Shown piece by piece: positions 10,002-48,128 of a DNA stretch of 64,000 nucleotides. Under the pieces are notes generated by a model that saw nothing but the letters and a program-made list of their open reading frames with translations, was not told where the DNA came from and made no database searches. Made by a program: the position numbers and the translations under genes. Each line of letters begins with the position of its first letter. Position 1 is the first letter of the stretch. The stretch is from Chloroflexota bacterium (lineage in GTDB: Bacteria > Chloroflexota > Anaerolineae > Anaerolineales > UBA11858), in assembly GCA_018648225.1 (NCBI GenBank), contig JABGRQ010000073.1:26064-90063 (forward strand). The letters are read 5' to 3'.

Positions 10002-10348
10002 ATTTCCACCAATACAATGATGATCTATGTTATAATGAAACGGATTTTTGTGCGTTGAGAAGCCACTTACGAACAAATATCAACAGGAGTGCGATTTTCA
10101 TTCAGGCATGGAGGTTTTTGACGAACCATTCTACTAGAAACACCCCGCCTACCCGAATCCACTCGGTTCACGTTCGTAAACGTTAACCGGGTTTTCATTT
10201 TTTTAATAAAGATACTAAAACGGGTCTCCGGGAATCACCGTGGTAGTTCCCAAAGAGCCACAAAAATAGCATATCGGGAAACCATTCAGAGTAAGGATTG
10301 TATCCCAGAGCGTACAACAACGCAACTTGAAGACAACGAACTGCAAGG

Positions 10349-10435
10349 AAATACGCAGTTCATTAGGAAATCGGTAAAAATAGGGGTGTAGGGTGTGCGG
10401 CGCATACCTTACACCCCTATTTTCCGGCTTTTTCT
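10349..10435 (+). repeat. Box-plus-GGGGTGT-hairpin element, copy A (candidate sRNA or leader)
   Basis: AAATACGCAGTTCATTAGGAA box (the 12-mer GTTCATTAGGAA is at 10358-10369), then the hairpin AAAATAGGGGTGTA..TACACCCCTATTTT (10377-10423), then CCGGCTTTTTC. Confidence 0.6.
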
Positions 10436-10468
10436 AACGTAATTATAGAGATCGCGCGAAATTGAATT

Positions 10469-16973: not shown

Positions 16974-17888
16974 ATGACTACCACAGCACTCATCGTTATT
17001 TTACACGAACCCAAATTACTCTCGAAACTCTTACGCGCCTGGAACCGTGCCAATGTCCCCGGTGTGACGATTTTACCCAGCATGGGTGGATTCCAGGCTC
17101 AGAAACAAGTGCGCCGCGGCGGATTGGGCAGCCTGCTGAATATGTTCACCCCGGACGAACCCGGTCAGCGCACCCTGCTCAGCCTGATTGATGATCCTGA
17201 AACTTTGGAACGCGCCATCTCCGAAGCCGACCGCGTGGTCAAGGGCTTTGATAGCCCGCGCAGCGGCGTTCTCTTCACTATGCCCATTGATAACGTCATG
17301 GGCCTGCAAAAATGGCGGCATACGCCCCCCACCCAAGAGATTGAAGAACCTGAACAAAAAGAACCCTCCAATTTGTTGAAATGGTTCTACGAAGATGTCA
17401 AGGAAACCTACGGGCGTGATGCCCTCTCTGATAGGAGCAGCCAACGTCAATTGCAGGTCGGCGAAATCATTCACACCCTCGATCTGGACCCTATCATCGT
17501 GCGTGTGGATACGCCCATCGGTGAAATCCTGCCCCGAATGCTTGAAAATTCTACGGTTTCTATGGCCTGCGTGGTCAACACCGAGCAACGGCTTATGGGC
17601 ATTATCCCCATCGCCACCCTTGCCGAAGTATTGCTCGCCCCAATTGTCCCCGAAGCCTTTGTGGATGAATCCGACGGTTATAACAAAGCGTTGCAATACT
17701 CCGCCCCCAATATCAATTTGCTCGCCGCCGACATTATGGACGAGCCGGTTTACGCTCACACCACTGCCGATCTGGCTGAAACCTATCAGCGCATGAAAGA
17801 ACACAATCTTAGTGAGTTGCCCGTGGTTGATCCGTTTTATCATGTCATGGGCCACATCACCCTGCTCGAAATTTTGGCAAGGCTTTGA
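16974..17888 (+). CDS. CBS-pair protein with an N-terminal PII-like (beta-alpha-beta x2) domain
   Basis: Two CBS motifs in the C-terminal half (IIVRVDTPIGEILPRM...GIIPIATL; IMDEPVYAHTTADLAETYQRM...GHITLLEIL). The PII-like call on the N-terminal 110 aa rests on secondary-structure pattern only. Confidence 0.7.
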   Translation: MTTTALIVILHEPKLLSKLLRAWNRANVPGVTILPSMGGFQAQKQVRRGGLGSLLNMFTPDEPGQRTLLSLIDDPETLERAISEADRVVKGFDSPRSGVLFTMPIDNVMGLQKWRHTPPTQEIEEPEQKEPSNLLKWFYEDVKETYGRDALSDRSSQRQLQVGEIIHTLDLDPIIVRVDTPIGEILPRMLENSTVSMACVVNTEQRLMGIIPIATLAEVLLAPIVPEAFVDESDGYNKALQYSAPNINLLAADIMDEPVYAHTTADLAETYQRMKEHNLSELPVVDPFYHVMGHITLLEILARL

Positions 17889-17937
17889 CAGCCCCTGACA
17901 GGCATGATACACTTCCCCGGTTTTGACAGGATTGCAT

Positions 17938-19041
17938 ATGAAAACCGTCGAATGGGATTTCACCACCCACAAACTCCAGATGATCGACCAACGGCTGCTC
18001 CCCGGAACATTTGAAGTAGCCGTTTTTGATGATTATCGCGCTGTTGCGCAGGCGATTACAGATATGGTTGTGCGCGGCGCACCGGCGATTGGCGCAGCAG
18101 CGGGATTCGGCTTGGCGTTGGCTGCCATTCAATCGGGCGCAACCACTCCCGAGGGCTTACTCACCGATCTAAAATCTGCCGCCGACCTGCTCAAAAAAGC
18201 TCGCCCTACCGCTGTCAACCTGGCCTGGGCGTTGGATCGTATCTTGAATTCCCTCACCCAAACCCTCTCCCAGGGGGAGAGGGGGCAACTAAGTCCCCTC
18301 CCCCGGTGGGGGAGGGCGGAGGCTGGGGGAATTCTTGCGGATTTACGCGCCGCCGTTCTCACCGAAGCCCAACGCATCGCCGATGAAGATGTTGAAATCA
18401 ACCAGCGCATGGCACGTCATGGCGCAGAACTCATTGAAGACGGCGATACGATCATTCATCACTGCAACACAGGCGCGCTAGCGACTGTTGATTGGGGCAC
18501 CGCCTTGGGCGTGATCCGTTTGGCACATGAACAGGGCAAGCGCATCCACGTTCTCGTCGATGAGACTCGCCCGCGCCTGCAAGGCTCACGTCTGACGGCC
18601 TGGGAACTCACCCAATACGGCATCCCCTACGACATCATCAGCGATAACGCCGCCGGGCATTTCCTCAGCAGCGGGCAAGTGGATAAAGTCTTCGTCGGCT
18701 CCGACCGCACCGCCGCCAACGGCGATGTGTGCAACAAAATTGGCACTTATATGCTGGCACTGGCTGCCTACGATAACGGCGTACCTTTCTACCCCGTGGT
18801 ACCCACCTCGACGATTGACATGACACTCGCCACCGGGGCAGAAATCCCCATCGAAGAACGCACTCAAGCCGAAGTTCTGTCGCTAACCTTCCAGGGGCAG
18901 GCTGCATTCCCCGAAGGCGCCTCGGCACGCAATCCAGCTTTCGATGTCACACCGCACAGGCTTGTTACGGGCATCGTGACTGAAAACGGGGTGGCGTATC
19001 CCCCATTCATAACAAATCTCGCACCTTTGGTAAAACGTTAA
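17938..19041 (+). CDS. mtnA: S-methyl-5-thioribose-1-phosphate isomerase
   Basis: MtnA/eIF-2B-related motifs (VVRGAPAIGAAA, RPTAVNLAWAL, HHCNTGALAT, VDETRPRLQG, GSDRTAANGD, NKIGTY). Carries an in-frame insertion of about 25 aa. Confidence 0.9.
   Translation: MKTVEWDFTTHKLQMIDQRLLPGTFEVAVFDDYRAVAQAITDMVVRGAPAIGAAAGFGLALAAIQSGATTPEGLLTDLKSAADLLKKARPTAVNLAWALDRILNSLTQTLSQGERGQLSPLPRWGRAEAGGILADLRAAVLTEAQRIADEDVEINQRMARHGAELIEDGDTIIHHCNTGALATVDWGTALGVIRLAHEQGKRIHVLVDETRPRLQGSRLTAWELTQYGIPYDIISDNAAGHFLSSGQVDKVFVGSDRTAANGDVCNKIGTYMLALAAYDNGVPFYPVVPTSTIDMTLATGAEIPIEERTQAEVLSLTFQGQAAFPEGASARNPAFDVTPHRLVTGIVTENGVAYPPFITNLAPLVKR
18263..18316. repeat. Twin GC-rich mini-hairpins inside mtnA
   Basis: CCCTCTCCC-AGG-GGGAGAGGG (18263-18283) and CCCTCCCCC-GGT-GGGGGAGGG (18296-18316). 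The second stem recurs at 42640-42660. Confidence 0.8.
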
Positions 19042-19044
19042 AAA

Positions 19045-19099
19045 TTGAAGGTTGAAAGTTGAACGTTAAACCTGTAACCTTCAACTTTCAACCCTGAAG
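19045..19099. repeat. Tandem-octamer hairpin element, copy E3 (TTGAAAG type)
   Basis: GGTTGAAAGTTGAA / TTCAACTTTCAACC is a 14-bp perfect core. It lies between the mtnA stop and the RBS of the next gene. Confidence 0.7.
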
Positions 19100-19107
19100 A
19101 GGAACAT

Positions 19108-20064
19108 ATGGATATTGTATTAACTGGCTCCGTCGCCTACGACTACCTGATGACCTTCCCCGGTCTCTTCAAAGATCACTTTCTGCCCGAAAAGCTGGAT
19201 TCGATCAGCCTATCGTTTCTCGTTACTTCAATGGTGCGTCACCGCGGCGGAATTGCGCCCAATATTGCCTACACCCTGGCGCTGCTCGGCGGCAAGCCGC
19301 GCGTCATGGCCACCGTTGGCGAAGATTTTTCCGATTACCGCTCTTTTCTTGAAACTGCGGGCGTAGACACCAAACTGATGAAAGTTGTCGAAGGCAAATT
19401 CACGGCTTCGTTTTTCGCCAACACGGATGAATCCAACGCCCAGATTGCCAGTTTTTACCCCGGGGCCATGGATCACGCCGGGGAGTTGTCTTTTCACGAC
19501 CTCGCGAACCAACCCGATTTGGTGGTTGTCTCGCCCAATGCCCCCGATGCGATGGTGCAATATCCCGTCGAGTGTCAGGCCCTCGGCATTCCCTATCTTT
19601 ACGATCCCAGCCAGCAAATTCCGCGCATGAGCGGTGAAGATTTGCGCGCCGGTGTGGAGGGCTGCTGCGCCCTGATGGTTAACGACTACGAATTTGAATT
19701 GGTCAAGAAAAGCACCGGGATGAGCGAAGCTGAAATTTTGGGTGGCCGCGCCTTCACAGTAGTGACGCGTGGCAAAGATGGGGCTTCTATTTACGTGGGC
19801 GACGAAGAGATTCGCACCCCCGTGGTGACTCCTGCTCAAATCGCCGACCCCACCGGCGTGGGCGACGCCTTCCGCGGCGGTTTCCTGACGGGTTATTCTC
19901 ACAGCCTCGATTGGGAAATCTGCGGTAAAATTGGCGCTTTGGCGGCCACATATTGCCTGGAATCTAAAGGCACCCAAGAACACAGTTTCACCCCCAAAGA
20001 ATTCATAACGCGCTTCCGTGAACATTTTGATGATGATGGCGCGTTGGATGTATTAATTCGTTAA
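19108..20064 (+). CDS. PfkB-family carbohydrate/nucleoside kinase (adenosine kinase-like)
   Basis: PfkB signature DPTGVGDAFRGGF near the C-terminus and an N-terminal GSVAYD motif. Confidence 0.85.
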   Translation: MDIVLTGSVAYDYLMTFPGLFKDHFLPEKLDSISLSFLVTSMVRHRGGIAPNIAYTLALLGGKPRVMATVGEDFSDYRSFLETAGVDTKLMKVVEGKFTASFFANTDESNAQIASFYPGAMDHAGELSFHDLANQPDLVVVSPNAPDAMVQYPVECQALGIPYLYDPSQQIPRMSGEDLRAGVEGCCALMVNDYEFELVKKSTGMSEAEILGGRAFTVVTRGKDGASIYVGDEEIRTPVVTPAQIADPTGVGDAFRGGFLTGYSHSLDWEICGKIGALAATYCLESKGTQEHSFTPKEFITRFREHFDDDGALDVLIR

Positions 20065-23770: not shown

Positions 23771-23850
23771 TACGCAGTTCGCTAAAATATGTGCCGAAAA
23801 TAGGGGTGTGTTGGGCGCGAAGCGCCCAACACACCCCTATTTTCGGGTTT
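23771..23850 (+). repeat. Box-plus-GGGGTGT-hairpin element, copy B (candidate sRNA or leader)
   Basis: TACGCAGTTCGCTAAAAT box, then the 23-bp perfect stem GAAAATAGGGGTGTGTTGGGCGC-GAA-GCGCCCAACACACCCCTATTTTC. TGATACAAT lies at 23738-23746. Confidence 0.6.
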
Positions 23851-32687: not shown

Positions 32688-32742
32688 CCTAAAAAGATGG
32701 TTGTGCGGAGCGCAAAGCGCTCCGCACAACCATCTTTTTAGG
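32688..32742. terminator. 26-bp perfect hairpin after the ybaK-like gene
   Basis: CCTAAAAAGATGGTTGTGCGGAGCGC-AAA-GCGCTCCGCACAACCATCTTTTTAGG. Confidence 0.55.
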
Positions 32743-41278: not shown

Positions 41279-41358
41279 CACCACAAAGACACAATACCCC
41301 GAAGGGTACAGGCGGCACGAAAAAATGCCATCCTTTGAGTCTTTGTGCCTTCGTGGCG
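41279..41358. repeat. Tandem-octamer hairpin element, copy E7 (CACAAAG/CACGAAG type)
   Basis: Left arm CACCACAAAGACACAATACC. The reverse complement of the right arm is CGCCACGAAGGCACAAAGACTCAAAGG. It lies just upstream of the AGGAG RBS. Confidence 0.65.
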
Positions 41359-41377
41359 AACTCTAGGAGCAAAATTT

Positions 41378-42535
41378 ATGAGCATGACTTCACGGGAACG
41401 TGTTTTAGCCTGCATAAATCATGAAGTGCCCGATCGTGTGCCAATTGTCATCGGCGAGAGCAATGCCACCGGCATCAAAATGCACACCTACAAAGGCATC
41501 AAAAAAATGATCGGCGTGAACGCCCCCGACGAGTATATTTATGGCTGGCCGGAGCTTGGCACCGCCAGGATTGATGAGGAAACCATGCAACGGCTGCACA
41601 GCGATGTGCGCGGCGTGCGCGATCTGGAGCCAGAAGCGGTGCGCCAGCGCAACCGCAACCGTCCACCCCACAGCGATTGCATCGATTCGTGGGGTAGCGG
41701 GCAGCGCGAAGTTGAAGAGGGTTACTGGTATCCCGGCGTACATCCTATCCCCGAGGCAAAAGCCATCGAAGATATTGAAAACTACACTGGCTGGCCAGAC
41801 ATGAGCGACCCATCTCGCGTCGCGCATGTCAAAGAGCAGGCGCGCAAACTGGCCGAACAAAACCAATATGCCATCCTGGCGACCCCGTGGCTGCTCTTCC
41901 CCTTTGAGCGGGCACACGCGATGCAGGGCATGGATGTTTTTCTGCTCAATATGGCAATGTATCCAGATTTTGCCAAAGCCTTGTTGACCAAAATCACGGA
42001 AGTTTGTAAAGAACTCATGGGCCCTTTCCTGGCCGAACTGGGCAACAACGTGGATATCATCAAAATCGGAGATGATCTGGGGACGCAAGAGAGCCTGCTC
42101 ATCTCTCCGAAGATGTATCGCGATCTTCTCAAGCCATTGCACGCCGATCTGATTAGTTTCATCAAGGCGCGCACCGACGCCAAAATTTTCTTCCACACGG
42201 ATGGTGATGTCCTGCCCCTGGTGGATGATTTTATCGAAATTGGAATCGATATTCTCAATCCGATTCAAACCTCAGCGGGAAAAATGTCAGATTTAGCGCA
42301 AGTGAAGCAACGGGCTGGCAAGAACCTGGTATTATGCGGCGCAATGGACACCCACAAAGTTTTGCCCTACGGCACACCCGAAGAAGTGCGCCAGGAAGTC
42401 AAACGCGTGATCGAACACCTTGGCCCCGGCAGCGGTTATATGTTGGCCTCCGTGCATACTGTGATGAACGATGTTCCCCCGGAAAATGTGCTGGCAATGG
42501 TCGATGCTGTAGAAGAGTTTGGGTATTACGAATAA
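41378..42535 (+). CDS. Uroporphyrinogen decarboxylase (URO-D) family protein, MtaA/CmuA-like
   Basis: URO-D family pattern across the length (RVP.V...., DDLGTQ, FFHTDGDV, ILNPIQ). Start at the ATG after AGGAG. Confidence 0.8.
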   Translation: MSMTSRERVLACINHEVPDRVPIVIGESNATGIKMHTYKGIKKMIGVNAPDEYIYGWPELGTARIDEETMQRLHSDVRGVRDLEPEAVRQRNRNRPPHSDCIDSWGSGQREVEEGYWYPGVHPIPEAKAIEDIENYTGWPDMSDPSRVAHVKEQARKLAEQNQYAILATPWLLFPFERAHAMQGMDVFLLNMAMYPDFAKALLTKITEVCKELMGPFLAELGNNVDIIKIGDDLGTQESLLISPKMYRDLLKPLHADLISFIKARTDAKIFFHTDGDVLPLVDDFIEIGIDILNPIQTSAGKMSDLAQVKQRAGKNLVLCGAMDTHKVLPYGTPEEVRQEVKRVIEHLGPGSGYMLASVHTVMNDVPPENVLAMVDAVEEFGYYE

Positions 42536-42550
42536 AAGCCCCCATCCCTA

Positions 42551-42573
42551 ACCCTTCCCCCAATGGGAGAAGG
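42551..42573. repeat. GC-rich mini-hairpin (type 1)
   Basis: CCCTTCCCC-CAATG-GGAGAAGGG, similar to 18263-18283. Confidence 0.6.
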
Positions 42574-42582
42574 GAACAAAGA

Positions 42583-42633
42583 ACGCAAAAAAGATGAGTC
42601 GCTGTAAAATACAGCGACTCATCTTTTTTGCGT
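42583..42633. terminator. Bidirectional terminator, 24-bp perfect hairpin between convergent genes
   Basis: ACGCAAAAAAGATGAGTCGCTGTA-AAA-TACAGCGACTCATCTTTTTTGCGT. Confidence 0.6.
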
Positions 42634-42639
42634 CAATCT

Positions 42640-42660
42640 CCCTCCCCCGGCGGGGGAGGG
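42640..42660. repeat. GC-rich mini-hairpin (type 2)
   Basis: CCCTCCCCC-GGC-GGGGGAGGG. The stem is identical to the one at 18296-18316. Confidence 0.7.
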
Positions 42661-42666
42661 GGTTTT

Positions 42667-43941
42667 CTATTCTTTCTCGTAAGGTTGCCCATCAGCGGCG
42701 GGCATCTGGCCGCGGCCAACCACCCCGGCCAGCGCCACCATTGTGGCAATATAGGGGAACATCAGCATGATTTCCGATGGAATCGGCACCCTCAAAATAG
42801 CGATTTTGGCGGCAAGCGCATCAAAGAAACCAAACAACAAGCCCGCGCCAAACGATCCGATGGGATTCCAGTTGCCGAAGATCATAGCGGCCAAACCAAT
42901 AAAACCGCGCCCGGCTGTCATCACTTCGTCGAAGCGGCCCACCGAACCCAGCGTGAAGTAAGCCCCGCCAAATCCGGCCATCATTCCGCCCAGGATGACC
43001 GAAATGTAGCGTGTGCGGAAGACATTAATCCCCAACGTGTCGGCAGCTTTAGGATGTTCGCCCACGGAGCGCGTGCGCAAACCCCAGCGCGTGTAATACA
43101 GGCCAACCGTCAGCACAATCAGGAAGATATACAGCGCATACACAAACATATTGTGCTGGAACATGATCGGCCCAATAAAGGGGATTTTTGAAAGCACAGG
43201 AACTTCAATCGTTGGGAAACGCCCCGGATCGTTGAGATGCTGGTAACGCTGCAAAAACTTGGCAGAAAGGAATGATGTAATCCCCGTAGCGAAGATGTTA
43301 ATCACCGTCCCGGCGATGATCTGATCGGTTTTGTATTTGATCGAGAGTACTGCCAGTATCCAGGCCAGCAGACCGCCCGAAAGCACCGCGGCGAAGAGGC
43401 CAATCCAGATATTGGTGACACTGCCAACAAACGCGCCAACAAAGGCACCAGTGAGCATCATACCTTCGATGGCGATGTTGACCACACCGGAGCGCTCACA
43501 CAGAACTCCGGAGAGGGCGCCAATTGTCAGGGGAACCGCCTTGACCAGGGCGCTGCGGAACAGTCCTGCCAAATTGAGCGTCCCACCCGATGTGGCCCAA
43601 CTCAGGAAACCAAAGATAAACATGGCGGCTGCCAGGCCCAGCATGAGCGTGGTGCGCTTGCCAAAACCGCGGGCAAGCTGATAGCCACCCAGTGCAATAC
43701 TCAATACAGAAAGCATATTGAGCATATTTTGGCTGTTGAATACCCAATCGGGAAGTTCCTGCGCTGAGCCTCCCGGAGTCAACCTGAAGGTAGTCAGCGC
43801 GTCCCCACCGATACCGCGGCCAAACATAATCCACAGTAAAATGCCCAGGGACAGAAAAAGGATTCCCATCACCCGACGCCGAGTCGGAGAAATATATTCA
43901 AAGTTATTCGTTGCAGTTGCCATGATTAGTTGCCTCCCCAA
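42667..43941 (-). CDS. ABC importer permease (BMP/nucleoside-type, YufQ/NupQ-like)
   Basis: Polytopic membrane protein of the branched ribose/nucleoside permease type. Operon context with a BMP-family binding protein. Confidence 0.85.
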   Translation of the reverse strand: MGRQLIMATATNNFEYISPTRRRVMGILFLSLGILLWIMFGRGIGGDALTTFRLTPGGSAQELPDWVFNSQNMLNMLSVLSIALGGYQLARGFGKRTTLMLGLAAAMFIFGFLSWATSGGTLNLAGLFRSALVKAVPLTIGALSGVLCERSGVVNIAIEGMMLTGAFVGAFVGSVTNIWIGLFAAVLSGGLLAWILAVLSIKYKTDQIIAGTVINIFATGITSFLSAKFLQRYQHLNDPGRFPTIEVPVLSKIPFIGPIMFQHNMFVYALYIFLIVLTVGLYYTRWGLRTRSVGEHPKAADTLGINVFRTRYISVILGGMMAGFGGAYFTLGSVGRFDEVMTAGRGFIGLAAMIFGNWNPIGSFGAGLLFGFFDALAAKIAILRVPIPSEIMLMFPYIATMVALAGVVGRGQMPAADGQPYEKE

Positions 43942-48046: not shown

Positions 48047-48128
48047 CCCCAGATATAGGGGTGTACGGGGTGCTTCGCACCCCGTACACCCCTATATCTG
48101 GGGAATGTCCCGCCAGTTCCTAATGAAC
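48047..48128 (-). repeat. Box-plus-GGGGTGT-hairpin element, copy C (candidate sRNA or leader)
   Basis: On the minus strand: GTTCATTAGGAA (48128-48117), then the 27-bp perfect stem CCCCAGATATAGGGGTGTACGGGGTGC and its complement (48103-48047). Confidence 0.6.

What the first reader, a model, noticed from the sequence alone, without database searches (positions are those of the whole stretch)
18263..18316. In-frame insertion of a twin GC-rich hairpin repeat inside mtnA
Seen: within mtnA the DNA reads CCCTCTCCC-AGG-GGGAGAGGG (18263-18283) and, 12 nt later, CCCTCCCCC-GGT-GGGGGAGGG (18296-18316). These are two 9-bp hairpins. They translate in frame as roughly TQTLSQGERGQLSPLPRWGRAEAGG, between the conserved RPTAVNLAWALDR segment and the DLRAAVLTEAQRI helix. 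The second stem is identical to an intergenic hairpin at 42640-42660, and the first resembles 42551-42573. Both loci also share a similar lead-in (CCCTCACCCAAACCCT versus CCCATCCCTAACCCT). Established: MtnA orthologues are typically about 340-350 aa, while this one is 367 aa. Inference: a small palindromic repeat, normally intergenic, has inserted into a surface loop of an essential-pathway enzyme without breaking the frame. This would be an example of repeat exaptation, or of tolerated insertion, in coding sequence.
Basis: partly seen in the sequence, partly recalled or inferred. Interest (0 to 1): 0.55.

Follow-up and report, generated by a model that had tools for sequence, protein, structure and literature searches.

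The report
BoxC-type palindromic repeat inside mtnA
A small GC-rich palindromic DNA repeat of the BoxC / "triplex motif" family, which E. coli carries only between genes, sits in frame inside the methionine-salvage gene mtnA of an uncultured Anaerolineae bacterium, where it adds about 20 floppy residues to a surface loop and makes that spot of the gene unusually unstable.

Summary
Two 9-bp GC hairpins lie at 18263-18283 and 18296-18316, in frame in a 367-aa MtnA whose relatives are typically 347 aa.

The insert is an inverted pair of BoxC/PIT/TMECO "intrastrand triplex motif" repeats. Window 18251-18283 (minus strand) matches the published pattern CCCTCNCCC-N3-6-GGGNGAGGG-N3-GGGNGAGGG exactly. 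The same 40 nt occur about 15 times in each of 5426 E. coli genomes.

In Anaerolineae the family normally sits 2-10 nt after stop codons. Here it encodes a low-confidence loop between two helices of the N-terminal domain, and the family-invariant residues are intact.

About a tenth of related MtnA genes carry the same motif at this loop, read in three different frames. These fall in at least three well-supported clades.

Two conspecific strains (99% nt identity) have identical flanks but a completely different loop patch. The site is therefore hypervariable and exchanged by recombination.

Exact copies also lie in frame in phage portal, transposase and recombinase genes.

Verdict: this is a tolerated selfish-repeat insertion, comparable to Rickettsia RPEs. 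There is no evidence of exaptation. It is a new instance of a known kind, and moderately interesting.

The parts
17938..19041 (+). mtnA (S-methyl-5-thioribose-1-phosphate isomerase), 367 aa, host gene of the insertion
   Evidence: ORF list. TIGR00512 398 bits, NF004326 431 bits. PDB 6a34 E 7.5e-95. AF2 model pLDDT 81, Foldseek TM 0.81 to 6a34.
18246..18334 (+). Whole inserted palindromic element, from GAATTC to GAATTC. It encodes roughly residues 104-133, about 20 residues more than the 11-residue ancestral loop.
   Evidence: Alignment with 119 short-loop relatives. Folds as one long stem at -66 kcal/mol, z = -4.9. Aligns end to end with intergenic twin elements.
18251..18283 (-). Complete BoxC/PIT/TMECO unit. 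On the minus strand it reads CCCTCTCCC-CCT-GGGAGAGGG-TTT-GGGTGAGGG.
   Evidence: Exact match to the published pattern, 0 expected by chance. Pattern taken from PMC4666352. Matches in all 5426 E. coli genomes at 80-95% identity.
18251..18259 (+).
   Evidence: Read. Column-conserved in all 9 twin elements.
18263..18283 (+). Hairpin 1: CCCTCTCCC-AGG-GGGAGAGGG
18284..18295 (+). Spacer between the two hairpins (GGCAACTAAGTC)
   Evidence: Variable in length among copies.
18296..18316 (+). Hairpin 2: CCCTCCCCC-GGT-GGGGGAGGG
18317..18329 (+). Degenerate right outer arm (CGGAGGCTGGGGG, in place of TT-GGGGTGAGGG)
   Evidence: Alignment A2 and pair counts: the window is the copy that breaks pairs 9-82, 10-81 and 13-78.
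42541..42665 (+). Intergenic copy of the same family, between convergent genes (41345-42535 +, 42667-43941 -). It comprises the lead-in plus hairpin 42552-42574, a nested unrelated 24-bp perfect hairpin at 42583-42633, and hairpin 42638-42662 followed by a T run.

Best explanation
**What it is.** An inverted pair of BoxC/PIT/TMECO repeats became lodged in the DNA that codes for a length-tolerant surface loop of MtnA. This happened in the ancestor of a small Anaerolineae clade (the window's species, the NIOZ-UU35 species and the ALNE18 species). Each repeat unit is a 9-bp C/T-only arm, a loop, a 9-bp G/A-only arm and a third G-rich arm. These repeats are normally parked just downstream of genes.

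**Why it is tolerated.**
- The loop joins two helices of the N-terminal domain.
- The arms are pure pyrimidine or pure purine runs, so they cannot contain stop codons. The only stop in the motif is TGA in one frame of GGGTGAGGG.
- The arms translate into Pro/Ser/Leu and Gly/Glu/Arg, which are loop-friendly residues.

**What it does.** The protein simply carries about 20 extra disordered residues. At the DNA level the palindrome makes the site unstable. It undergoes slippage in C/G runs, duplication, deletion down to one hairpin, and replacement of the whole patch by homologous recombination. Selection only restores the reading frame, so the peptide differs in every lineage.

**Shown and inferred.** Shown: the identity of the repeat, its position, its absence from most orthologues, the three reading frames, within-species patch replacement, and in-frame copies in other genes. 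Inferred: neutrality of the peptide, instability caused by non-B DNA, and how the repeat first got in. No mobilising enzyme is known for this family.
For: - **Repeat identity.** Exact TMECO pattern at 18251-18283. Pattern and history of BoxC/PIT/TMECO from PMC4666352. Matches in 5426 of 5426 E. coli genomes, median 15 places each.
- **Same architecture in intergenic copies.** Nine twin elements from seven genomes align end to end. 90% of cells pair in the three-helix scheme, against 54-71% when the partners are slid.
- **Normal location.** Eleven of about 20 intergenic copies lie within 10 nt of a stop codon. The window's other copy lies between convergent genes.
- **It is an insertion.** 119 of 180 relatives have an 11-residue loop. 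PDB homologues lack 18-21 residues at this position.
- **Tolerated position.** AF2 gives helix 93-114, coil 115-130 with pLDDT about 52-66 (below 50 at 125-129), then helix 131-163. All family-invariant columns are kept, including C176 and D256.
- **Peptide not conserved.** The window has QTLSQGERGQLSPLPRWGRAEA and the closest species has PSPSLKRRGEAPPLPGGEGWGEG. Three frames are used among relatives.
- **Instability.** L008 and L003 are 99.0% identical over 8.3 kb and their mtnA flanks are 100% and 98.7% identical, yet the loop patch is only 36% identical. 71 of 137 differences in 2.9 kb fall within 100 nt. A second patch replacement is seen between L026 and L032. L005 carries a tandem triplication and L003 a single-hairpin remnant.
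- **Other in-frame copies.** Phage portal, Mu-type transposase and serine recombinase genes, and a TPR protein.
- **Published precedent for instability.** TM loci are hypervariable among E. coli strains (PMC4666352).
Against: - The same loop carries the motif in at least three well-supported MtnA clades plus singletons. In 1.3 Mb around mtnA no other gene carries it. Random insertion followed by tolerance does not easily explain such a hot spot.
- Hairpins stay intact while the frame changes, and one C-G to T-A double change is seen between the window and L001. This could mean selection on structure.
- The entry mechanism is unknown. There is no clean target-site duplication: the GAATTC copies are 83 nt apart, which is not a multiple of 3.
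- Enzyme activity of the insert-bearing protein is untested.
Confidence: 0.8

Rival explanations
1. The hairpin is a selected nucleic-acid element inside the coding sequence. It might be an mRNA structure that slows ribosomes between the N-terminal and C-terminal domains, sets mRNA stability, or binds a protein. On this view it is kept or re-acquired at this exact position in many lineages.
For: - The same motif lies at the same loop in several clades and in three reading frames, so what persists is DNA or RNA, not peptide.
- The predicted RNA stem is very stable: -66 kcal/mol, z = -4.9.
- There is one compensatory pair change between the window and L001.
- The loop is about 50-100 times enriched for the motif relative to flanking DNA.
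Against: - About 90% of relatives lack it.
- Within insert-bearing clades it decays: L037 and L101 have lost the hairpin, L168 has none and L169 is decayed.
- Conspecific strains carry radically different versions.
- The family showed no promoter or terminator activity in E. coli, and purine-motif triplexes do not form in RNA (PMC4666352).
- No Rfam family matches.
- Arm complementarity can be maintained by arm-to-arm templated repair without any selection (my own knowledge of quasi-palindrome mutagenesis).
Confidence: 0.1
2. The extra peptide has been exapted. The 20-residue loop would give MtnA a new property, such as an interaction surface or regulation.
For: The insert is fixed and nucleotide-identical in all sampled assemblies of this species. 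Expanded loops persist throughout clade A and clade C.
Against: - The peptide sequence is unrelated between the closest species, and the frames differ.
- Confidence is low and no secondary structure is predicted for residues 115-130.
- Within one species the loop is 30 aa in one strain and 15 aa in another.
Confidence: 0.05
3. It is not an insertion of a dispersed repeat. Instead it would be a local expansion of the native Gly/Pro-rich loop by slippage that happens to be palindromic, or an assembly artefact.
For: The native loop contains GGN GGN codons. Tandem duplication does occur inside the loop, as in L005.
Against: - The match to the 33-nt BoxC/TMECO pattern is exact.
- The segment aligns end to end with intergenic twin elements.
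- Empty loops are no more similar to the repeat arms than the rest of the gene: score 11.4 versus 11.6.
- The sequence is identical in five independent assemblies.
Confidence: 0.03

Closest known systems
BoxC / PIT elements / TMECO intrastrand triplex motifs (E. coli and other Proteobacteria; Holder et al. 2015, PMC4666352)
   Same: The sequence pattern CCCTCNCCC-N3-6-GGGNGAGGG-N3-GGGNGAGGG is identical, with 80-95% identity to E. coli copies. Both occur singly and as inverted ('palindromic') pairs. Both usually sit in short intergenic spaces next to gene ends. In both, local sequence is hypervariable between close strains (against the paper's E. coli comparison).
   Different: In E. coli MG1655 the motif is 'always located intergenically', and the TMECO pattern was reported from proteobacterial genomes. 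Here it lies in frame inside a conserved enzyme gene of a Chloroflexota (Anaerolineae) bacterium, and exact copies also lie in frame in phage genes.
Rickettsia palindromic elements (RPE; Ogata et al. 2000, 2002, as summarised in PMC10969869 and PMC3733652)
   Same: A palindromic repeat is inserted in frame in housekeeping genes at positions compatible with the protein fold. It is interpreted as selfish DNA tolerated in coding sequence.
   Different: RPEs are about 100-150 bp, restricted to Rickettsia, and each family encodes a conserved peptide. They occupy dozens of genes per genome. Here the unit is 33-90 nt and very GC-rich, is read in three frames with no conserved peptide, and was seen in only one host gene in the DNA sampled.
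REP/BIME and REPIN elements, GTAG- or CGTC-tagged (Di Nocera et al. 2013, PMC3733652)
   Same: These are short GC-rich imperfect palindromes. They lie mainly downstream of ORFs between unidirectional or convergent genes, occur as singles and inverted dimers, and are occasionally inside ORFs.
   Different: There is no GTAG or CGTC tag at the ends of the window element (read). There is no evidence of a RAYT transposase. A third arm (triplex architecture) is present, which REPs lack.
MITEs that make in-frame fusions (ERIC, Coxiella QMITE1, cyanobacterial MITEs; PMC10969869, PMC5896051)
   Same: Small non-autonomous repeats that can be translated as part of host proteins.
   Different: No terminal inverted repeats derived from an IS and no consistent target-site duplication. 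The element is far shorter than most MITEs.
GC clusters of yeast mitochondria and double-hairpin elements of Allomyces mitochondria (my own recollection, not checked here)
   Same: GC-rich, hairpin-forming mobile repeats, some of them double hairpins, that are found inside coding sequence (for example var1) without destroying it.
   Different: They are organellar and unrelated in sequence. This comparison was not tested with the tools.

Membership tests
BoxC / PIT / TMECO intrastrand triplex motif | Sequence pattern 5'-CCCTCNCCC N3-6 GGGNGAGGG N3 GGGNGAGGG-3' | tested here: met
   Exact match at window 18251-18283, minus strand, with 0 expected in shuffles. The second unit (18296-18329) has a degenerate third arm. 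Pattern taken from PMC4666352.
BoxC / PIT / TMECO intrastrand triplex motif | Sequence similarity to the E. coli copies | tested here: met
   blastn of window 18247-18336 gives hits in 5426 of 5426 E. coli genomes, median 15 places per genome, at 80-95% identity over query positions 2-42.
BoxC / PIT / TMECO intrastrand triplex motif | Dispersed multi-copy repeat in the same genome | tested here: inconclusive
   Only 64 kb of this genome is available. It holds two loci (mtnA and 42541-42665). Related Anaerolineae loci hold 0-5 copies per 10-20 kb.
BoxC / PIT / TMECO intrastrand triplex motif | Intergenic location ('always' in E. coli MG1655) | tested here: not met
   This copy is inside the mtnA ORF, in frame. 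The other Anaerolineae copies are intergenic, mostly 2-10 nt after a stop codon. Location is a description of the E. coli copies rather than part of the sequence definition.
BoxC / PIT / TMECO intrastrand triplex motif | Formation of an intrastrand purine-motif triplex by the single strand | not testable with these tools
   This was shown in vitro for E. coli oligonucleotides by CD and NMR, and was not seen in vivo (PMC4666352).
BoxC / PIT / TMECO intrastrand triplex motif | Elevated local sequence variability between close strains | tested here: met
   L008 versus L003: flanks 100% and 98.7% identical, patch 36%, and 71 of 137 differences fall within 100 nt. L026 versus L032 shows the same.
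Rickettsia palindromic elements (RPE) | In-frame insertion in a functional protein-coding gene | tested here: met
Rickettsia palindromic elements (RPE) | Each family encodes a conserved peptide read in one frame | tested here: not met
   Three frames are used, and the peptides of the closest relatives are unrelated.
Rickettsia palindromic elements (RPE) | Sequence membership in RPE-1 to RPE-10 | not tested
   No RPE sequences were compared. The composition (GC-rich, 33-90 nt) and host phylum make membership implausible.
REP (GTAG/CGTC-tagged) mobilised by RAYT | GTAG or CGTC tetranucleotide at one end of the palindrome | tested here: not met
   Neither tag flanks the window element on either strand (read). 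Definition from PMC3733652.
REP (GTAG/CGTC-tagged) mobilised by RAYT | Cognate RAYT (Y1 transposase) gene in the genome | not tested
   Only 64 kb is available, and the ORFs of the window were not all scanned.
MITE | Terminal inverted repeats plus target-site duplication | tested here: inconclusive
   GAATTC occurs at both ends (18246-18251 and 18329-18334), but the two copies are 83 nt apart, which is not in frame. The closest relatives L008 and L001 lack them.
Intrinsic terminator | GC-rich stem followed by a T run | tested here: not met
   No terminator-like site was found in 17800-19200. The intergenic hairpin 42638-42662 does score as one.
MtnA (TIGR00512) | Score above the curated cut-off, with family-invariant residues present | tested here: met
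   398 bits against a cut-off of 279. C176 and D256 are among the invariant columns of 61 sequences. Their catalytic role is from my own knowledge of B. subtilis MtnA.

The most novel reading that the evidence does not exclude
BoxC/TM motifs are not merely static intergenic oddities of enterobacteria. They would be a cross-phylum element that still spreads, with phages as likely carriers, and that can land in frame in protein loops and linkers. The mtnA loop of Anaerolineae would then be a recurrent landing or exchange site. There, filled, empty, remodelled and within-species polymorphic alleles coexist, giving exact junctions from which the unknown insertion mechanism of this 30-year-old repeat family could be worked out.
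Probability: 0.25. Interest if true: 0.7.

Novelty: new member of a known kind. Interest (0 to 1): 0.5.

Why it matters
BoxC/PIT/TMECO repeats have been known since the 1990s, yet no function, mobilising enzyme or origin has been assigned to them.

The published description has them strictly intergenic in E. coli, and the TMECO pattern was counted in proteobacterial genomes. This finding changes three things:

- The identical motif exists in Chloroflexota.
- It can sit in frame inside a conserved enzyme, and inside phage portal, transposase and recombinase genes.
- The occupied site behaves as the published 'instability' idea predicts. It is the most variable stretch of the gene, is polymorphic within one species, and has been replaced as a patch by recombination.

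A conserved gene with empty, filled and remodelled alleles is a much cleaner frame for studying how these repeats arise and decay than variable intergenic DNA.

For annotation, the practical point is that Pro/Ser/Leu-Gly/Glu/Arg-rich extra loops such as 'LSQGERG', 'PLPLGEGPGVRA' and 'PSPSGRG' in bacterial and phage proteins are often translated copies of this repeat.

Tried and rejected
- **Rfam.** Nothing came near a gathering score on 18150-18450. The whole window gave only three tRNAs.
- **Peptide search with the P0076 insert.** The third returned only three short ORFs and did not even recover P0076, so it is uninformative.
- **Full HMMER scan of 1.84 billion representatives with the window's 30-aa insert.** Only two hits. 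One is a TPR protein with five tandem translated copies, and the other is an unrelated repetitive ORF.
- **Microhomology hypothesis for the hot spot.** The idea was that the native loop DNA resembles the repeat arms. It is rejected: 132 empty loops score 11.4 against 11.6 for other tiles of the gene.
- **Target-site duplication.** The GAATTC pair is out of frame and absent from relatives.
- **Internal terminator.** None was predicted in mtnA.
- **Donor of the L003 patch.** Not found among 170 loci.
- **Upstream part of the L170 contig.** It has no match in any other locus.
- **Single ancient origin with many precise losses.** I consider this unlikely, because the 11-residue loop is the majority state and is shared with distant MtnA. 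The tree backbone is too weak to exclude a smaller number of gains.
Full report
**1.
- Window 18263-18283 reads CCCTCTCCC-AGG-GGGAGAGGG, and 18296-18316 reads CCCTCCCCC-GGT-GGGGGAGGG.
- Both lie in the + strand ORF 17938-19041 (367 aa). They translate in frame as ...NSLTQTLSQGERGQLSPLPRWGRAEAGGILADLR....
- The pattern CCCTCNCCCNNNGGGNGAGGG with up to two mismatches occurs four times in the window (18263, 18296, 42553, 42640), against 0.01 expected.
- The stem at 42640-42660 is identical to hairpin 2.
- The gene is nucleotide-identical in five independent assemblies. Its product is recorded on at least 24 contigs from four sources, so misassembly is excluded.

**2. The host gene is a normal MtnA with an extra loop.**
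- NCBIfam TIGR00512 scores 398 bits against a cut-off of 279. The best solved relative is P. horikoshii MtnA, 6a34 (E 7.5e-95). That structure lacks 18 residues exactly here, and T. maritima 1t9k leaves query residues 104-140 unaligned.
- Among 180 distinct relatives, all Anaerolineae/Chloroflexota MAGs, the stretch between '...DRIL' and 'DLR...' is 11 residues in 119 sequences and 31 in the window.
- An AlphaFold2 model (pLDDT 81; Foldseek TM 0.81 to 6a34) puts helix 93-114, a coil at 115-130 with pLDDT about 52-66 (below 50 at 125-129), and helix 131-163.
- All columns invariant in 61 relatives are kept, including C176 and D256. From my own knowledge of B. subtilis MtnA, these correspond to the catalytic Cys and Asp.
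- The insertion is therefore in an inter-helix connection of the N-terminal domain of an apparently functional enzyme.

**3. What the inserted DNA is.**
- In intergenic DNA of other Anaerolineae genomes the same architecture recurs: CCCTCACCC - hairpin - spacer - hairpin - GGGTGAGGG. Examples are L005 1368-1447, L066 2186-2268, L072 6042-6126, L113 3084-3164 and L118 45-125.
- Nine copies from seven genomes, including the mtnA copies of the window, L008 and L171, align end to end. In the three-helix scheme 90% of cells pair, against 54-71% when the partners are slid. Four pairs show double changes.
- A literature search on the arm sequences led to Holder et al. 2015 (PMC4666352). The unit CCCTCNCCC-N3-6-GGGNGAGGG-N3-GGGNGAGGG is the E. 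coli 'TMECO' intrastrand triplex motif. It was described earlier as BoxC and as PIT elements.
- According to that paper:
  - there are 23 copies in MG1655, 'always located intergenically';
  - 3610 copies were counted in 262 proteobacterial genomes;
  - inverted 'palindromic' pairs exist;
  - no promoter or terminator activity was found, and no linked transposase;
  - the loci show raised sequence variability among E. coli strains.
- Window 18251-18283 matches this pattern exactly on the minus strand, with 0 expected. So do L008's mtnA copy and three intergenic copies.
- blastn of the window element finds the family in all 5426 complete E. coli genomes, median 15 places each, at 80-95% identity over 40 nt. 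One such hit starts at the last base of ilvC, between ilvC and ppiC.
- The twin hairpin is thus an inverted pair of BoxC/TM units. The left unit is perfect. The right unit has a decayed third arm.
- No Rfam family fits.

**4. Where the family normally lives.**
- In 1.3 Mb of Anaerolineae DNA (the window plus 83 distinct loci), family-type copies outside mtnA are intergenic or at ORF edges. Eleven of about 20 lie within 10 nt of a stop codon.
- The window's second locus (42541-42665) lies between convergent genes. There the two hairpins are separated by an unrelated 24-bp perfect hairpin, and the second is followed by a T run.

**5. The same loop is occupied in other MtnA lineages.**
- Every expanded loop whose DNA I could read carries this motif, but in different frames:
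  - LSQGE(R/S)G in the window and L001;
  - PPLPxGEGPGVR in L003, L005 and L006;
  - PSPSGRGxRGE in L007 and L026;
  - SLSxxERxxGEG in L022, L084 and L099;
  - LTPSPSLKRRGEAPPLPGGEGWGEG in L008.
- Twelve of 43 pyrimidine-arm hairpins in the 1.3 Mb lie in this roughly 100-nt stretch.
- I built a neighbour-joining tree of 180 MtnA sequences with the loop masked and 100 bootstraps. It places expanded loops in:
  - clade A {window, L008, L003, L001, P0004} (bootstrap 84; core trio 99);
  - a bootstrap-100 clade of five, in which L005 and L006 sit with three short-loop sequences;
  - clade C (15 sequences, 14 of them expanded, bootstrap 98);
  - singletons L007, L084, P0008 and P0111.
- The backbone of the tree is unsupported, so the number of independent gains is uncertain. 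It is probably at least three.
- Within clades the hairpin often decays, as in L037, L101, L168 and L169.

**6. The site is hypervariable and exchanged by recombination.**
- L008 (MAG NIOZ-UU35) and L003 are conspecific: 99.0% identity over 8.3 kb, and MtnA is 97.9% identical outside the loop.
- Around the loop their DNA is 100% (89/89) and 98.7% (75/76) identical. In between, a 65-110-nt patch is only 36% identical. 71 of 137 differences in 2.9 kb fall within 100 nt.
- L008 has the twin element (30-aa loop). L003 has a single hairpin (15-aa loop).
- The codons just outside the repeat differ mostly at synonymous sites (GCG/GCC, CGA/CGC, TTG/CTA). That is the signature of a patch imported from a diverged allele rather than of local mutation.
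- A second case is L026 versus L032 in clade C. A divergence spike of about 90 nt removes the repeat and changes 30 nt beyond it.
- The window and L008, which are about 92% identical genome-wide, are 89-91% identical in the flanks but only 62% in the element, and they read it in different frames.
- One contig (L170) joins unrelated DNA to mtnA exactly at the left end of the element.
- The scattered phylogenetic distribution may therefore owe as much to patch transfer through the very conserved flanks as to repeated insertion.

**7. In-frame copies are not unique to mtnA.**
- Of 140 exact matches, 42 are spanned by stop-free ORFs with at least 60 codons on each side.
- For seven protein families the ORF is verifiably real:
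  - Phage_portal;
  - Portal_Mu (twice);
  - a lambda-type portal;
  - a serine recombinase, with the motif between the resolvase domain and the rest of the protein;
  - a Mu-type transposase, aligned across the insert;
  - a two-domain PHROG protein with the motif in the linker.
- A TPR protein carries five tandem translated copies reading 'SLTPALSQGERG...', which is the window's own frame.

**8. How it most likely works.**
- *Direct from the sequence:* the arms are pure C/T or pure G/A, so they cannot contain stop codons. The only stop in the motif is TGA in one frame of GGGTGAGGG. The arms translate to Pro/Ser/Leu and Gly/Glu/Arg.
- *Inference:* such a repeat is intrinsically compatible with an ORF, and it survives wherever the protein tolerates a flexible hydrophilic loop.
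- *Inference, in line with PMC4666352 and with my own knowledge of palindrome biology:* the hairpin- or triplex-prone DNA provokes slippage, arm-templated correction, breakage and repair by recombination. This keeps stems complementary without selection. It also makes the loop the fastest-evolving part of the gene, with selection acting only to restore the frame.
- How the repeat first entered is unknown. There is no clean target-site duplication, and empty loops are not unusually similar to the repeat arms.

**9. Rivals.**
- A selected RNA or DNA element is suggested by the hot spot and by frame-independent persistence. It is weakened by absence in about 90% of relatives, decay within clades and wildly different alleles within one species.
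- Exaptation of the peptide is contradicted by the lack of any peptide conservation.
- Local expansion and assembly artefact are excluded.

**10. Limits.**
- Only 64 kb of this genome was available.
- Gene calls in the loci are ORF-based.
- The sample is centred on mtnA, and the search query contained the insert.
- The tree is neighbour-joining only.
- Only seven of the 42 spanned viral matches were validated, and viral contigs may include host DNA.
- No experiment bears on enzyme activity or on DNA structure in vivo.

Noticed in passing
window 23794-23846, 32688-32742, 42583-42633, 48049-48103: Four long perfect palindromes, with 24-27-bp stems and 3-nt loops. Each has a different sequence. 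Most have an A run on the 5' side and a T run on the 3' side, like bidirectional terminators. One of them is nested between the two BoxC-type hairpins at 42.5 kb. Perfect stems of this length four times in 64 kb are unusual.
   Followed up: partly
L170 1-340 (ENA ERZ27060321 k141_127676) versus L171 2180-2420: In this contig unrelated DNA (the 5' region of a membrane-protein gene) is joined to the 3' two-thirds of mtnA exactly at the left end of the twin element. The element copy differs at two bases and has an intact GGTGAGGG arm. This is either a rearrangement between two repeat copies or a chimera. The element (85 nt) is shorter than the assembler's k of 141, which argues for a real molecule.
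   Followed up: partly
L008 10292-10400 versus L003 10292-10363; also L008 10600-10900: Two conspecific strains (99.0% identity over 8.3 kb) carry entirely different loop alleles of mtnA. A second, milder cluster of differences lies further into the gene, so mtnA is a recombination mosaic in this species.
   Followed up: yes
IMG/VR loci L178, L187/L198, L202, L227, L228, L242, L250: Exact BoxC/TMECO units lie in frame inside phage portal proteins, a Mu-type transposase, a serine recombinase and a two-domain PHROG protein. Each time the unit is in a linker, a tail or between matched domain stretches.
   Followed up: partly
P0128 (335 aa, ENA contig of 53.7 kb): A TPR protein with five tandem in-frame repeats 'SLTPALSQGERxNSPPPxGEGxGERERPVPxRGR'. 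These are translated BoxC-type units in the same frame as the window's 'SLTQTLSQGERG'.
   Followed up: partly
L005 (= L021, Chloroflexota MAG SuakinDeep_MAG43_1) 10323-10440: Inside mtnA the hairpin is followed by three tandem copies of the third-arm unit (GGGGCCGGGGGTGAGGGCAGAG). This gives 'GEGPGVRAEELGEGPGVRAEGPGVRA' and a 42-residue loop, and it shows slippage expansion of the repeat within coding sequence.
   Followed up: partly
E. coli genomes; NZ_CP029112.1 24641-24681: The 40-nt core of the window element matches every one of 5426 complete E. coli genomes, median 15 places each. This shows near-identical conservation of the motif between Proteobacteria and Chloroflexota. One copy starts at the last base of ilvC, between ilvC and ppiC.
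   Followed up: partly
window 16974-20064 and loci L003, L168, L171: Gene order is conserved around mtnA in this clade: Usp - CBS-domain protein - mtnA - PfkB-family kinase - S-adenosylhomocysteine hydrolase - ABC transporter - FKBP. The PfkB kinase next to mtnA may be the methylthioribose kinase analogue of these organisms, but this was not tested.
   Followed up: no
L003 18779-18821: A single long hairpin variant of the family, CCTCACCCCCGCCCTCTAC-CGTTG-GTAGAGGGCGGGGGTGAGG, lies 8 nt after a stop codon. Its centre contains GTAG, the tag of classical REPs.
   Followed up: no
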